From the NCBI GenBank assembly GCA_902633515.1, contig CACPGB010000001.1, positions 3,669-67,668 of the forward strand: a stretch of DNA of 64,000 bases. Direction: 5' to 3'. Both the position numbers and the translations under genes were made by a program. Below, piece by piece: positions 14,125 to 20,307 of the stretch; position 1 is the first letter of the stretch; each line of letters starts with the position of its first letter. The notes beneath the pieces were generated by a model. It was given only the letters and a program-made list of their open reading frames with translations, had not been told where the DNA came from and searched no databases. This DNA comes from an uncultured Pelagibacteraceae bacterium. Its GTDB lineage: Bacteria; Pseudomonadota; Alphaproteobacteria; Pelagibacterales; Pelagibacteraceae.

Positions 14125-14778
14125 CAAGTAGTCCAAAATTTAATTAGTATTAAAGAAGAAATAAAACAAAACCTTTCTGATTCAAAAGATTATAAAGTAC
14201 CAAAAATTATTGCTGTTTCAAAGACTTTTGGAATGGATAAAATATTACCTTTAATAGAATATGGACATCAAGATTTTGGTGAAAATAAGGTCCAAGAAGC
14301 GATTGAAAAATGGAGTGTAATCAAATCTGATAAAAATAATATCAAATTACATTTGATAGGCGGTCTTCAAACAAATAAAGTCAAATTAGCTGTGCAATTA
14401 TTTGACTATATCCATTCTGTGGATAGTGAAAAACTTGCTAAAAAAATATCTAATGAACAACAAAAACAAAATAAAAAAGTAAGAGTTTTTATTCAAGTTA
14501 ATATTGGAAATGAAGAGCAGAAGTTTGGGGTAAATAAACTTTCTGTATCTAATCTGTATTCCTATTGTAAAACTCTTAATTTAGATGTAGCTGGATTAAT
14601 GTGCATTCCCCCGTTAAATAAACCATCAGAAACATTTTTTAAAGAAATGAATGAAATGAACAAAAAATTAAATTTTGAGGATTTGAGTATGGGGATGTCT
14701 TCAGACTATTTAGATGCAATAAAAAATTCTGCTACATATGTAAGAATTGGTTCTAATATCTTTGGTAAGAGAAATTAG
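14119..14778 (+). CDS. yggS: PLP homeostasis protein YggS
   Basis: IAVSKT, FGENKVQE, HLIGGLQTNK, LSMGMSSDY, VRIGSNIFG. Confidence 0.96.
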   Translation: MHQVVQNLISIKEEIKQNLSDSKDYKVPKIIAVSKTFGMDKILPLIEYGHQDFGENKVQEAIEKWSVIKSDKNNIKLHLIGGLQTNKVKLAVQLFDYIHSVDSEKLAKKISNEQQKQNKKVRVFIQVNIGNEEQKFGVNKLSVSNLYSYCKTLNLDVAGLMCIPPLNKPSETFFKEMNEMNKKLNFEDLSMGMSSDYLDAIKNSATYVRIGSNIFGKRN

Positions 14779-15269
14779 TTAATTTGAATTTTTGACTTTT
14801 TATCAATTAATTTTAGCATAATTAAAAAATCTTTCTTTTTAATAGCTATACAACCGATTGTAGGTTTATAATTATTTGTTAGATGAATAAAAATACAACT
14901 ACCTTTAAATTTGATTGGTTTAATAAAATTAAATTTAATCGGTATTAATAAATCATAATTATGATCTTTTCTATAAAGATTTTCACACTTTATTTTTTTA
15001 TTTATAGTTATTAATTTATTATAATTTTTTAAATTATGTGGATCATCACACCAACCCATATTCTTTTTAATTTTTATACACTTTAAATTTGTAATTGGTT
15101 TTTTAACCCTATCTGATCTATAATATAGATTTTCAATGGTATAATAACCAATTGGGGTTTTTTTATCACCCTCTTTTTTTTTTTTACTTTTACCATTTTT
15201 ACCAATAGAACACTTGAATTTAAAATCATCCACTTCAAGTGTATGTTTATTTTTTAAGTAAATTATCAT
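14775..15269 (-). CDS. L,D-transpeptidase (YkuD)-family protein
   Basis: EGDKKTPIG, GSCIFIH, PTIGCIA (catalytic His and Cys). Confidence 0.88.
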   Translation of the reverse strand: MIIYLKNKHTLEVDDFKFKCSIGKNGKSKKKKEGDKKTPIGYYTIENLYYRSDRVKKPITNLKCIKIKKNMGWCDDPHNLKNYNKLITINKKIKCENLYRKDHNYDLLIPIKFNFIKPIKFKGSCIFIHLTNNYKPTIGCIAIKKKDFLIMLKLIDKKSKIQIN

Positions 15270-15279
15270 ATTCTATAGT

Positions 15280-15849
15280 TTGATGAATAGTCATAATCTT
15301 ATTATTTATGAATTTGAAGAATTATATAAGATTTTAATTGAAATTAAAAAAGATATAAATTTTAAATTTGAAAAGATAAATAAAGAAAACTTACCTGAGT
15401 TAAATTCAAAATTGAATTATTTAATATTTACAAAAAAAAAAATACCTGGATTAGATAATCAAATAGTTTTTAATCATTTTCCAGTATCAATTTTTAAATT
15501 ATTGGAAAAAATAAATATTGAGTTTATTAAAAGAAGTTTTCATGAACAATCTGATATGGCAATTGGAAATTATAAACTTAACCTTAATGCACGCGAAATG
15601 TCTTTTGGAGATAAAAAGCTAAAACTTACGGAAAAAGAGATTGACTCAATAGTATATATTTTCAAAGTTGCTGGATCAGTGAAAATACAAGAATTACAAT
15701 CAAATGTATGGGGATATCAATCTAAATTAGAAACACATACTGTTGAAACACATATTTATCGATTAAGAAAAAAAATTTTAAAAACTTTTAATGATGAAAA
15801 TTTCATTATAAGTAAAAAAGATGGTTACGAAATTCAAAAAAAAAAATAG
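15280..15849 (+). CDS. OmpR-type winged-helix regulator, CenR-like, with degenerate receiver domain
   Basis: LTEKE, VWGY, ETHTVETHIYRLRKK, GY C-terminal motifs; divergent from the L,D-transpeptidase near yggS and leuS. Confidence 0.8.
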   Translation: MMNSHNLIIYEFEELYKILIEIKKDINFKFEKINKENLPELNSKLNYLIFTKKKIPGLDNQIVFNHFPVSIFKLLEKINIEFIKRSFHEQSDMAIGNYKLNLNAREMSFGDKKLKLTEKEIDSIVYIFKVAGSVKIQELQSNVWGYQSKLETHTVETHIYRLRKKILKTFNDENFIISKKDGYEIQKKK

Positions 15850-15940
15850 ATTTGCCAAAGATCTTTTTTCTAAAAAATATAAACCTAGAATTATAAAACC
15901 AAAAAAAGGTAAGGGAAGCTTTAAAAGAAGAAAAAGTTAA
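15821..15940 (+). CDS. ArfA-like alternative ribosome-rescue factor, 39 aa (not in ORF track)
   Basis: MVTKFKKKNRFAKDLFSKKYKPRIIKPKKGKGSFKRRKS*; matches the ArfA signature KKGKGS[YF]xR. Confidence 0.72.
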   Translation: MVTKFKKKNRFAKDLFSKKYKPRIIKPKKGKGSFKRRKS

Positions 15941-16866
15941 AGTCTTGCCCCAATTTGTTGAATGATTTTTGATGATAATTTAGTTCCATGCTCCAAACAT
16001 TTATTAGTAGATAGATTGTTTGTAAAACCATGCAAATAACCGGCTGCAAAAAGATCTCCCGCACCTGTCAAATCTTTGATAGTAATATTTTTATCTGCTT
16101 CTATCACATTAATTTCACTGCCATTAATTGAAATAGCACCTTTTTCTCCCCGAGTAATAACAATATGTTTTTCAATTTCTCTTGCAAAAGCTATTACTTC
16201 GTTGAAATTTTTAGCATTAATTAGCGCCATAATTTCACTTTCATTTGCGAACGTTAAGTCTAATTTTTCTTTAACTAAATCTAAAAAATTTTTTTTATGT
16301 CTTTCTACGCAAAACAGATCTGATAACGACATTGCAACTTTTTTGGCATTATTAATTGCTTTCTCAAATGCTTTTTTTGGTTCACCTTCGTCCCACAAAT
16401 AGCCTTCTAAAAAAATTAATTCACTTTTTTTTATAATTTCCACATTCACATCGTACGCATTAATTTTGCCAGCAATACCCAAAAATGTACACATAGTCCT
16501 TTCAGAGTCCGGTGTAACTAAAATTAGACATGTTCCAGTAGGAATAGTCTCTTTTTGCTTTGTGTAATAATACTTAACATTTTCTCTCATTAATCCTGCT
16601 TCATATTTAGCTCCAAATTCATCATCAGATATTTTTCCTATAAAACCAACCTCATTTTTAAGCTGAGATAAGCCAACTATTGAATTAGCAACTGAACCTC
16701 CAGAAATAGATTTTTCAATTTTAAGATTCCCTAAAAGATTTTTGAATTCAATTTCATTAAAAAATAATTTCATTGTGCCTTTTGTAAGATTATTTTCTGT
16801 AATAAAATTTTCTTCAACTTTGCAAATTATATCAACAATTGCATTACCAATACCGAGAACTTTCAT
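15937..16866 (-). CDS. PfkB-family carbohydrate/adenosine kinase
   Basis: GIGNAIVD, GGSVAN, ERTMCTFLG, DLTGAGDLFAAGYL. Confidence 0.93.
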   Translation of the reverse strand: MKVLGIGNAIVDIICKVEENFITENNLTKGTMKLFFNEIEFKNLLGNLKIEKSISGGSVANSIVGLSQLKNEVGFIGKISDDEFGAKYEAGLMRENVKYYYTKQKETIPTGTCLILVTPDSERTMCTFLGIAGKINAYDVNVEIIKKSELIFLEGYLWDEGEPKKAFEKAINNAKKVAMSLSDLFCVERHKKNFLDLVKEKLDLTFANESEIMALINAKNFNEVIAFAREIEKHIVITRGEKGAISINGSEINVIEADKNITIKDLTGAGDLFAAGYLHGFTNNLSTNKCLEHGTKLSSKIIQQIGARL

Positions 16867-18310: not shown

Positions 18311-19465
18311 TTACTTTAATTTATTCTCAAATTCCTCTTTTAATTTACTTACAACTTTATCCCAAGAAAAATTTTTGATTACATAATTGGACCTTTCCAT
18401 TTTAGAAGTATCTGGTTTATTTATAACTCTTTCCTCTAAAATATTAACTAAAGAGTCTATATTTGGATTAAGAAAATATTTGTCATTTATTTTTTTTTCA
18501 CTACTTTCAATTTGAAATCCAAGACAAGAGTTATAATAATCGTCAGTACAGCCACCTTTTGTTACTACTATTTGCGATCCACATGCTGCTGCTTCTAGTG
18601 GTGTTAAGTTAAACCCTTCTGCACGATATGGAGAAACATAACAATCAGTGATAGAATATAAATTTTTTATCTCTTGAAAATTTAGATTTTTTGAAATTAT
18701 TTTAATATCACTCATCATTTTCTCATTTATGATGTTGTATTTTTTATTAAATTTGGACTTTTTCAATCTTTCAAAAAGATAATCTGTTTTAATTTCAAAT
18801 AAGTTACTTTGGTCTTTAAGAATTAATTTTAGATTGCTTATTTTTTTTTTAAGAATTCCATAAGCGGCAATAAGTATCTCAACTCCCTTATTTTCAGTCA
18901 TTGCCCCAATATTTGTTAAAATAAAAGCATCATTTTCAATTCCATATTCTTTTCTTATTTTAATTTTTTCTTCATCTGAAACTAAATGAAATGTTTTTTT
19001 ATTTATACCGTGAGGAATAACAATTATCTGCTCATCTTTGAACCCTGCCTTTAAGTAACCTTCTTTACACCAATTTGAAGGTGTATGAATAAAAAAATCT
19101 TTATTAGATTTTAGTTTTTCAGGAATACCATTGATATAATTGCTTTTAGGTAAAACTTTGTGTGCACAATTACCAAAAACAAATAAAGTTTTTGAATTAA
19201 ATTTATCTTTAAAATTAAAAGGAAAAGATATTCTATAAGTAATATCATGTATTTGGTTTTTTTTTGATTTTGGGATATTGTTAATAAAGTTTGATAAATT
19301 TTTTTCTAAACCACTAAAATTTTTTTTATTGTTCCATTTTTCTGAAGCAAACGGAATATCCTTAAAAAATATATCACAAGATTTTGAAAGTTCTAAAATT
19401 TGCCACTGATTTACTAATGAAAATGAGTGGTTAATTCCTCTCCAACCCTCAATAAGAATATTCAT
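18311..19465 (-). CDS. GT-B glycosyltransferase, family 4
   Basis: VIPHG, ENKG, EX7E motif PYRAEGFNLTPLEAAACG, FSW. Confidence 0.9.
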   Translation of the reverse strand: MNILIEGWRGINHSFSLVNQWQILELSKSCDIFFKDIPFASEKWNNKKNFSGLEKNLSNFINNIPKSKKNQIHDITYRISFPFNFKDKFNSKTLFVFGNCAHKVLPKSNYINGIPEKLKSNKDFFIHTPSNWCKEGYLKAGFKDEQIIVIPHGINKKTFHLVSDEEKIKIRKEYGIENDAFILTNIGAMTENKGVEILIAAYGILKKKISNLKLILKDQSNLFEIKTDYLFERLKKSKFNKKYNIINEKMMSDIKIISKNLNFQEIKNLYSITDCYVSPYRAEGFNLTPLEAAACGSQIVVTKGGCTDDYYNSCLGFQIESSEKKINDKYFLNPNIDSLVNILEERVINKPDTSKMERSNYVIKNFSWDKVVSKLKEEFENKLK

Positions 19466-19506
19466 TATGCCAACTTATATCACATATGATTTTGATTAAA
19501 ATTATA

Positions 19507-20307
19507 TTAGTAATAATTTTTTAAATTTTCCATTAATCTTACAAAATTAGCGTTACGATTTATTTTATCCTTATCTTCTTGTTTTATTAAAATTGGAGCA
19601 ACATCATTTTTAATCTGAATATTAGTTGAAGCTAGAGCTTTACCATCTCCTGTTAATTTTATTTTATTAAGTTTGTCACTAAAATTATCATTAAAATTAA
19701 TTTTTAAAATTTTACACATACGTTTGAGATTTTCATATGGATTACTACAAAAATCTTCATATTTAAAAATTTTACTTTTTAAAGCATCTAAAAAAAAATT
19801 TTCGTATCCTTTTACAAAAAAATCAAAATTATAATTTTTAATAAAAAAAGGAAGAGAATTAAAACAACTTATGTAAAGTTCTAGAGGGTGCCGTAATATA
19901 TATAGATTTAATATTTTGAATTTTTTATTTAGAATTTCTAAAACAGAATTTTTGTATGTTGGTTTTATAAATGGAATTCCAAAATAATCTAAAAAAGACC
20001 AGTCTCGAATTATCAATTTTTTGTTTTTTTTTTCAGTTTTTTCTATAATTAAACTAATTTTTTCCTCGAAATTATAATTTGTATTTTTAATCTTTTCATA
20101 TTCTTCTTTTTTAAATAAATCATTCCATTCTTGAGCTTGAAATATTGGATCAGCGAAATCACAATTTCTATTCATATTTTTTAAAACTTCTATTCCATTT
20201 GGATGAATTTCACTTAGCAGTACAACGTCTTCTTGAGCACCTAAACATTTTGAAATTATTGTGCCACCACTTCTTTGAAGATTGTGAATTAATCTTATTT
20301 CTATCAT
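19507..20307 (-). CDS. PAPS-dependent sulfotransferase-family protein
   Basis: 5'-PSB loop QRSGGT, 3'-PB motif LRHP....S, KYEDF. Confidence 0.8.
   Translation of the reverse strand: MIEIRLIHNLQRSGGTIISKCLGAQEDVVLLSEIHPNGIEVLKNMNRNCDFADPIFQAQEWNDLFKKEEYEKIKNTNYNFEEKISLIIEKTEKKNKKLIIRDWSFLDYFGIPFIKPTYKNSVLEILNKKFKILNLYILRHPLELYISCFNSLPFFIKNYNFDFFVKGYENFFLDALKSKIFKYEDFCSNPYENLKRMCKILKINFNDNFSDKLNKIKLTGDGKALASTNIQIKNDVAPILIKQEDKDKINRNANFVRLMENLKNYY

What the first reader, a model, noticed from the sequence alone, without database searches (positions are those of the whole stretch)
15821..15940. Hidden 39-aa ArfA-like ribosome-rescue ORF with its own stop and no regulatory tail
Seen: an ATG inside the last 29 nt of the CenR-like gene opens MVTKFKKKNRFAKDLFSKKYKPRIIKPKKGKGSFKRRKS*, ending on the stop of the convergent pfkB gene; it is below the ORF-track size cut-off. 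Known: E. coli ArfA carries N-A-x-L...F-R-Q-R-V...KKGKGSYxRK, recruits RF2 to non-stop ribosomes, and is made from a truncated non-stop mRNA, so it accumulates only when tmRNA is limiting. Inference: this is a minimal ArfA already cut to about its active core, with no hydrophobic tail or internal hairpin. It could be a constitutive, tmRNA-independent rescue route in a streamlined marine alphaproteobacterium, coupled to an envelope regulator.
Basis: partly seen in the sequence, partly recalled or inferred. Interest (0 to 1): 0.78.

Follow-up and report, generated by a model that had tools for sequence, protein, structure and literature searches.

The report
Short stop-ended ArfA gene in SAR11
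A real, conserved 39-codon gene in this likely SAR11 ocean bacterium encodes a cut-down member of the ArfA family that ends at an ordinary stop codon and shows no self-limiting hairpin, so it likely frees ribosomes stuck on broken messages without waiting for the main rescue system to fail, although that activity is untested.

Summary
The ORF is real. It runs 15821-15940 (+), starts 29 nt inside a degenerate OmpR-type regulator gene and shares its stop with convergent pfkB. It is an ArfA-family gene: a profile of its relatives finds E. coli ArfA at E=1e-9, though its own Pfam score is under the cut-off. It is under purifying selection (dN/dS about 0.1) and occurs in 175 of 251 genomes of the order. 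Close relatives sit in marine phages. All 58 chromosomal copies examined stop 6-11 residues after KKGKGS, with no conserved hairpin. Five of five kin keep tmRNA and SmpB and lack ArfB. Against the simple reading: it ends three residues short of the shortest active E. coli form, lacks Ala18, Leu19, Leu24 and the KH motif, and about 30 genomes have no detectable copy. 'Constitutive' and 'coupled to an envelope regulator' are unshown. Added here: other alphaproteobacteria carry terminator-gated ArfA of the same branch, and a GKGS-less subtype occurs in 41 of 76 genomes lacking this gene and 0 of 175 with it. The scan found this short ArfA before on other DNA, IMG labels it, and one paper names a pelagiphage copy. 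New variant, untested.

The parts
15821..15940 (+). Short ArfA-family ORF, 39 aa, own TAA stop
   Evidence: the exact protein is in the public collection in a cluster of 16
15845..15928 (+). Conserved core, Asn9 to Arg36 (E. coli Asn14 to Arg41): N, L, Y/F, KKGKGS, aromatic, R
   Evidence: column counts over 58 loci; ungapped alignment to E. coli ArfA
15902..15919 (+). KKGKGS motif (E. coli 33-38), start of the basic segment that fills the mRNA channel in E. coli
   Evidence: PMC5378476 section 5
15280..15849 (+). Upstream OmpR-type regulator with winged-helix domain and a shortened, degenerate receiver; its last 29 nt overlap the ArfA start
   Evidence: Pfam Trans_reg_C E=3.6e-10, no receiver match; alignment to full-length alphaproteobacterial homologues; upstream in 29 of 29 motif-bearing loci
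15937..16866 (-). Convergent pfkB-family kinase; its stop overlaps the ArfA stop, so any 3' extension of its transcript is antisense to the ArfA coding end
   Evidence: a convergent gene ends within 15 nt of the ArfA stop in 56 of 58 loci
14775..15269 (-). YkuD L,D-transpeptidase-family gene, divergent from the regulator; conserved neighbour, not shown to be part of the function

Best explanation
This is a genuine, selected ArfA-family gene whose product is born short and likely works as a release-factor adaptor that would free ribosomes stalled on non-stop mRNA without being gated by tmRNA. Shown: family membership, selection, fixed position, a real stop 6 residues after KKGKGS, and no terminator or hairpin before that stop. 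Inferred from E. coli ArfA: the basic C-terminal half (KKGKGS-F-K-R-R-K) enters the empty mRNA channel, the Tyr20-Ile25 segment adds a strand to RF2, and RF2's GGQ releases the nascent chain untagged. Inferred from anatomy: it is co-transcribed and translationally coupled with the upstream regulator, and because the message carries a stop it would be made whenever that message is, in parallel with tmRNA-SmpB. It is accessory, since near-complete kin exist without it, and it belongs to an alphaproteobacterial and phage branch that likely moves between hosts and phages.
For: A profile of 40 SAR11, phage and alphaproteobacterial relatives finds the six E. coli ArfA chains at E=1.3-2.6e-9; the next hit is at E=0.62. 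Positions 14, 20, 25, 33-38 and 41 (E. coli numbering) are kept in 57-58 of 58 loci. dN/dS is 0.10-0.12, with third codon positions most variable. The tail after GS is 6-11 aa in 58 of 58 SAR11 loci against 16-49 aa in 44 of 44 canonical rows. No fold signal in the window (z 0.58 and 0.08), no terminator, mean z 0.23 over 58 loci. The start lies inside or within 1 nt of the regulator's stop in 53 of 56 loci. RF2 of five kin keeps the Trp of the switch loop and the Phe217 equivalent, with Ile for Val198 (numbered from SPF; contacts from PMC5378476). The odd residues are a branch trait and not decay: six non-SAR11 alphaproteobacterial copies also have A17 (6 of 6), mostly Arg at 19 and 24, and Val/Ile at 30, and two of them carry a GC stem plus T-run before their stop, the classic non-stop design (L058, L059). 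No third RF-1-domain gene (ArfB) in 23 of 23 genomes of the order tested.
Against: No activity data exist. The peptide ends at E. coli position 44; E. coli ArfA works when cut at 47 and further shortening is reported to inactivate it (PMC5378476). Ala18 is Lys in 56 of 58; Leu19 and Leu24, two of the three residues that grip RF2 Trp319, are Asp/Glu/Asn in 57 of 58 and Lys/Arg in 58 of 58, against hydrophobic in 40 and 41 of 43 canonical rows. The N-terminal minidomain that switches RF2 on (residues 2-16) is mostly missing. KH is in 0 of 58 loci and 23 of 44 canonical rows. Thirty of 31 genomes without either subtype give no match to a merged profile and the one match is stop-broken, and 5 of 5 inspected show a clean gap at the locus. 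The own score is under the Pfam cut-off.
Confidence: 0.6

Rival explanations
1. The peptide binds the empty mRNA channel like ArfA but does not switch on RF2, as the E. coli A18T mutant behaves. It would then plug or protect idle 30S/70S ribosomes, compete with tmRNA-SmpB, or work with another partner such as RF1.
For: The channel-binding basic half is near-invariant while the RF2-activating parts (Ile11, Ala18, Leu19, Leu24, N-terminal minidomain) are absent. The same form is common in phages (125 confirmed relatives among 601 pattern matches), sometimes fused to other small basic modules. A subtype even lacks GKGS.
Against: Terminator-gated alphaproteobacterial copies share most of the same substitutions, and such gating makes sense for a rescue factor. 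Tyr/Phe25 and the strand segment are kept in 58 of 58.
Confidence: 0.2
2. It is a rescue factor but is still held down, by a route other than its own hairpin: pairing with the convergent pfkB transcript and RNase III cleavage, Rho-dependent termination, or fast proteolysis.
For: A convergent gene ends within 15 nt of the stop in 56 of 58 loci. E. coli arfA and mscL show antisense control in the same tail-to-tail layout (bioRxiv 10.1101/2022.11.21.517365, passages; layout).
Against: Tight tail-to-tail packing is also seen where the gene is absent, so it is ordinary genome streamlining. Any uncut message still yields the whole peptide. Some copies of the GKGS-less subtype sit mid-operon with overlapping stop and start codons.
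Confidence: 0.13
3. Phage-derived cargo or a generic basic nucleic-acid-binding peptide with no role in translation.
For: SAR11 cores are closer to viral cores (mean best-hit identity 0.80) than to other alphaproteobacterial (0.53) or canonical (0.54) cores; the window's core is 86% identical to viral contigs L064 and L065. Presence is patchy.
Against: One fixed chromosomal position, dN/dS about 0.1, and specific similarity to ArfA beyond composition.
Confidence: 0.06
4. A chance ORF in lysine-rich, AT-rich overlap DNA.
For: Low complexity, under the Pfam cut-off, ATG supplied by the neighbour's codons.
Against: 0 of 5000 shuffles reach its score. The frame is open in all 58 loci, while the two other forward frames are stop-broken in 25 and 29 of 29.
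Confidence: 0.01

Closest known systems
E. coli ArfA (YhdL, b4550; Pfam PF03889; PDB 5MGP, 5MDV, 5U4I, 5H5U, 7OJ0)
   Same: Ungapped alignment over residues 12-44, 42% identity, hhalign E=1.9e-6; N14, L20, F/Y25, KKGKGS, R41; tail-to-tail with a convergent gene with overlapping stops.
   Different: 39 aa against 72; own stop at position 44; no hairpin, hydrophobic tail, KH, A18, L19, L24 or E30; short N-terminus; activity untested.
Pelagiphage HTVC027P gp30, called ArfA in PMC12753301, and related marine phage ArfA-like genes
   Same: 58 aa, same branch with N-P-x-A-K and KKGRGSF-K-R, own stop shortly after the motif; 79 of 80 viral loci carry the motif, tails 4-25 aa in 65 of them.
   Different: Phage-borne, often with an extra N- or C-terminal basic module; named from a Pfam hit only, with no functional test in the passages read.
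   Same: Same branch residues at positions 17, 19, 24 and 30.
   Different: They keep KH and a 22-62 aa tail; L058 and L059 have a GC stem and T-run before the stop.
Bacillus subtilis BrfA
   Same: Small RF2-recruiting rescue factor; shows that RF2 can be activated through a different N-terminus (PMC8012679 section 7).
   Different: No sequence match; BrfA is gated by a terminator before its stop and has KH.
Pfam DUF7230 (PF23876)
   Same: Matches 5 of 10 members of the GKGS-less subtype (best E=4.8e-6); that subtype's profile finds E. coli ArfA first (E about 1e-3).
   Different: The window's peptide has GKGS and matches PF03889, not DUF7230; no function is described (0 papers).

Membership tests
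ArfA (PF03889) | Sequence homology to ArfA | tested here: met
   Profile to E. coli ArfA E=1.3e-9; hhalign E=1.9e-6; 0 of 5000 shuffles
ArfA (PF03889) | Score above the Pfam curated cut-off (25.5 bits) | tested here: inconclusive
   The window's peptide scores 22.8; syntenic orthologues pass in 19 of 61 genomes searched
ArfA (PF03889) | Basic C-terminal KKGKGS-Y/F-x-R segment for the mRNA channel | tested here: met
   57-58 of 58 loci per column
ArfA (PF03889) | Reaches the shortest length known to be active (Asn47), with the KH motif | tested here: not met
   Ends at position 44; KH in 0 of 58. KH is also missing in 21 of 44 canonical rows. Limits from PMC5378476
ArfA (PF03889) | Hydrophobic patch Leu19/Leu24/Phe25 and Ala18 minidomain that activate RF2 | tested here: not met
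   Only position 25 kept (Y/F 58 of 58); K18, D/E/N19, K/R24 (roles)
ArfA (PF03889) | Made from a non-stop mRNA (hairpin or terminator before the stop; hydrophobic tail) | tested here: not met
   No terminator; fold z near 0; 2 of 58 loci with z below -2; tail 6-11 aa. Real transcript ends were not observed
ArfA (PF03889) | Host RF2 with the ArfA-contact residues | tested here: met
   Switch-loop Trp and Phe217 equivalent invariant in 5 of 5 kin RF2, Ile at 198; the own genome holds only the C-terminal 63 aa, with the Trp
ArfA (PF03889) | RF2-dependent peptidyl-tRNA hydrolysis on non-stop ribosomes; synthetic lethality with ssrA | not testable with these tools
   Needs bench work
ArfB (YaeJ) | Own GGQ catalytic domain | tested here: not met
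   39 aa, no GGQ, no RF-1 match
CenR (upstream gene) | Intact receiver with phospho-Asp and a cognate CenK | tested here: not met
   No Pfam receiver match; receiver about 40 aa shorter than in five homologues; CenK not searched; PMC9275681 found no CenK or CenR in Pelagibacterales

The most novel reading that the evidence does not exclude
SAR11 and its phages run an ungated, tag-free ribosome rescue with a 35-40 residue peptide that activates the release factor by a new route, without ArfA's N-terminal minidomain or Leu19/Leu24 patch. It comes in two interchangeable forms, with and without GKGS (the second being DUF7230-like), that exclude each other across the order. It would spare nascent chains from tmRNA-directed proteolysis in the ocean's most abundant cells, and phages would carry it to keep host ribosomes working.
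Probability: 0.25. Interest if true: 0.75.

Novelty: new variant of a known kind. Interest (0 to 1): 0.5.

Why it matters
Two papers state that ArfA is absent from Alphaproteobacteria (0 of 2,376 genomes in PMC11633108; bioRxiv 10.1101/2022.11.21.517365), and the factors described in the review read (ArfA, BrfA) are backups made from non-stop mRNA (PMC8012679). A stop-ended, minimal ArfA in most SAR11 genomes and many of their phages would extend the family to very abundant marine cells, break the rule that it is tmRNA-gated, and give a natural minimal peptide for asking which ArfA parts really switch on RF2. It can be tested with a synthetic 39-mer. The interest is tempered because annotation pipelines already label these genes ArfA, a pelagiphage copy is named in print, this scan has reported the short form at least nine times, and the gene is dispensable.

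Tried and rejected
Co-folding of the peptide (alignment A3) with RF2 domains of the close relative G008 (alignment A2) gave 'no answer', score 0.05 against a mark of 0.32; it is no evidence either way. RNA: no RNA holder was listed; laying three same-study metatranscriptome contig sets gave only scattered pieces, mostly under 90% alike, including one 188-nt contig across 15754-15941, which cannot show strand, ends or level. tblastn against named phages found nothing with two queries, although HTVC027P gp30 is in that collection, so the low-complexity filter is the likely cause. PHROGs gave only phrog_37108, unknown function, E=0.01. The promoter scan found no + strand site. A regulator-ArfA frameshift fusion through the 11-A run at 15836-15846 was considered: two metagenomic proteins look fused (P0196, P0235), but the offset between start and regulator stop varies over loci, so it was set aside as likely sequencing error, untested. 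The weak tmRNA match in the own genome (31.9 bits) is a 35-39 nt piece that ARAGORN does not call; SmpB was not found in the own assembly, which is only 59% complete, so neither is evidence of loss. The weak A1 matches in genus g311 and family f2 (11 genomes) were first suspected to be noise; the five inspected are the GKGS-less subtype. The two PF03889 matches inside 366-aa frames in f2 were not counted. DUF7230 itself found 1 of 35 genomes. No tree was built: a 28-residue basic core cannot carry a donor claim. Schaub 2012 (PMC3436202) and Kurita 2020 (PMC7504928) were not held and not seen; the first surveys proteobacterial arfA genes and could mention short forms.

Full report
Observation. 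It starts 29 nt inside an upstream 189-aa ORF (15280-15849) and shares TTAA with the stop of a convergent pfkB-family gene (15937-16866). The window lies in a 59%-complete assembly. I call the organism SAR11 (Pelagibacter-like) by inference: kin genomes are 1.0-1.5 Mb when near complete, carry the permuted alphaproteobacterial tmRNA, and the nearest named phages of three viral loci are pelagiphages. No tool named it.

Family. Pfam ArfA (PF03889) is the only Pfam match, E=6.3e-5, 22.8 bits, under the 25.5 cut-off. NCBIfam gives none. The six best PDB sequence matches are all E. coli ArfA, weak for the single peptide (E 0.2-0.5) and strong for a profile of 40 relatives (E 1.3-2.6e-9, next hit 0.62). 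The alignment to E. coli residues 12-44 is ungapped. Composition does not explain it: 21.8 bits against a profile of 31 canonical cores, reached by 0 of 5000 shuffles. IMG already names some members ArfA (5 of the 120 rows listed).

It is a gene. PF03889 matched 30 of 36 same-genus genomes. In the 29 motif-bearing loci fetched, the regulator is upstream in 29 and pfkB lies within the fetched flank in 27 (the 30th locus had no motif and was dropped). Over 58 loci (the best-scoring 29, 3 and 26, the own locus included and three duplicates removed, so biased towards typical copies) pN/pS is 0.21-0.26 and corrected dN/dS 0.10-0.12, with pS near saturation; among 415 pairs at 80% identity or more pN/pS is 0.14. 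Third positions vary most, and the other two forward frames are stop-broken in 25 and 29 of 29 loci.

Spread. My profile matched 186 of 251 genomes of the order. Eleven of these were weak matches in genus g311 and family f2; the remaining 175, own genome included, are this gene. One of them, G512, is flagged unpublished and enters only as one count. Five complete same-genus genomes without a match have the regulator's stop running straight into the convergent gene, a clean absence. Outside the family, 8 of 397 genomes of the class matched and 13 with a wider profile. In viral contigs 125 of 601 pattern matches were confirmed; none of the 80 loci kept carries the chromosomal neighbours, and three tested resemble T4-like pelagiphages at three different genome positions. 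SAR11 cores are much closer to viral cores (mean best hit 0.80) than to other alphaproteobacterial (0.53) or canonical ones (0.54). That suggests host-phage exchange but gives no direction.

No non-stop control is visible. All 58 copies end 6-11 residues after KKGKGS (42 at exactly 6), whereas 44 of 44 canonical rows run on for 16-49 (one of 45 loci gave no motif). The window has no terminator and no unusual fold; across 58 loci the mean fold z is 0.23, with 2 below -2. The same test does see the signal where it exists: 4 of 7 non-SAR11 alphaproteobacterial loci score below -2, and L058 and L059 show a GC stem followed by a T-run before the stop (in L056 the hairpin lies after the stop). So the gated design occurs in this class and the SAR11 form lacks it. 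Real transcript ends were not observed, and antisense overlap with the convergent gene remains a possible control.

What is kept and lost. Kept in 57-58 of 58: N14, L20, F/Y25, KKGKGS, R41 (E. coli numbers). Lost: Ala18 (Lys in 56), Leu19 (Asp/Glu/Asn in 57), Leu24 (Lys/Arg in 58), Glu30, KH and most of residues 1-13. In E. coli, Leu19, Leu24 and Phe25 grip RF2 Trp319, Ala18 packs the activating minidomain, truncation at Asn47 is active and truncation after Met40 is dead (PMC5378476 sections 5 and 7; PMC8012679 section 7). The peptide ends at 44, in the untested gap, though with four basic residues in positions 40-43. This is the main evidence against the simple reading. In its favour, six other alphaproteobacterial copies, including the terminator-gated ones, share most of these substitutions, KH is missing from 21 of 44 canonical rows, and SAR11 RF2 keeps the contact Trp and Phe.

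Rescue context. Five of five near-complete kin have SmpB and tmRNA. All 23 genomes of the order tested have exactly two RF-1-domain genes, so no ArfB; that includes 14 complete genomes with no ArfA-like gene. The peptide is thus the only recognisable second route where it exists, and it is not essential for the lineage.

A second subtype. The weak matches led to short, stop-ended peptides with the same N-terminal half but without GKGS, at other loci. Their profile finds E. coli ArfA first (E about 1e-3), and 5 of 10 members match DUF7230. In the same 251-genome draw they occur in 41 of the 76 genomes lacking the window's gene (17 in g1, 6 in g311, 18 in f2), and none of the 175 shows a second match; where the profile hits those genomes and the places could be compared, it hits the known gene. 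Thirty-five genomes have neither; 31 of them were searched again with a merged profile, giving one stop-broken match. Kin are not independent and this may be three or four events, so it is a lead for interchangeability, not proof.

The upstream gene. It has a winged-helix domain and no Pfam receiver. Its best matches in five other alphaproteobacteria are 230-aa OmpR regulators that I recall as CenR-like; the window's copy lacks about 40 receiver residues. PMC9275681 (section 14) found no CenK or CenR in Pelagibacterales. The ArfA start lies inside or within 1 nt of its stop in 53 of 56 loci, so coupling of translation is plausible, but a link to envelope signalling has no support.

What is in print. 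PMC11633108 reports arfA in 0 of 2,376 Alphaproteobacteria by nucleotide HMM (passages and Table 1). bioRxiv 10.1101/2022.11.21.517365 says it is not present in Alphaproteobacteria (passages; its supplements were not seen). PMC12753301 names pelagiphage HTVC027P gp30 as ArfA from a Pfam hit (passages and supplement search); that protein is of this branch. PMC4235212 and PMC13159725 were read as passages. Searches for ArfA with Pelagibacter, SAR11, pelagiphage, alphaproteobacteria and phage, and for DUF7230 listed no paper on a chromosomal SAR11 ArfA; subscription papers are not covered. This scan has reported the short form before in another SAR11 genome and in eight phages.

Verdict. A real, selected, stop-ended ArfA-family gene. 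It most likely works like ArfA, ungated (0.6). It is a new variant and not a canonical member, because the non-stop regulation and part of the RF2-activating surface were tested and not met. Function is untested. Interest 0.5.

Noticed in passing
L262 (G461:C1:28668-28790), L252-L281: GKGS-less ArfA-like peptides (34-48 aa, own stop, DUF7230-like) in 41 of 76 genomes of the order that lack the window's gene and 0 of 175 that have it; some sit mid-operon with overlapping stop and start codons.
   Followed up: partly
L058:1569-1640, L059:1569-1640, L055, L057, L226: Tailed ArfA with KH in other Alphaproteobacteria, two with a GC stem and T-run before the stop, against published statements that the class has no ArfA.
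   Followed up: partly
L203, L205, L206, L212, L214, L216, L217, L219, L220, L223-L225: Several canonical ArfA ORFs end in AA, LAA or FLAA, like the end of a tmRNA tag, as if the full-length product carried its own degron.
   Followed up: no
L066, L069, L073, L090, L099, L116, L133 (viral contigs): Phage ArfA-like peptides fused to other small basic modules, an N-terminal W-D-G module (also in HTVC027P gp30) or a C-terminal module of about 60 aa.
   Followed up: no
window 15280-15849: OmpR-type regulator with a shortened receiver lacking a recognisable phospho-Asp, conserved beside the ykuD gene across the order; possibly a kinase-independent remnant.
   Followed up: partly
window 15836-15846: Run of 11 A in the overlap of the regulator and the ArfA ORF, a potential slippage site; two metagenomic proteins look like regulator-ArfA fusions (P0196, P0235).
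   Followed up: no
L033 (G000:C5:25137-25174): A 35-39 nt piece matching kin tmRNA genes at 89-94% without a full tmRNA call; may be a tRNA-like end or an integration-site remnant.
   Followed up: partly
window 18311-20307: A glycosyltransferase-like ORF (384 aa) and a sulfotransferase-like ORF (266 aa) between dapB and dnaJ, judged by eye; labels recalled, not scanned.
   Followed up: no
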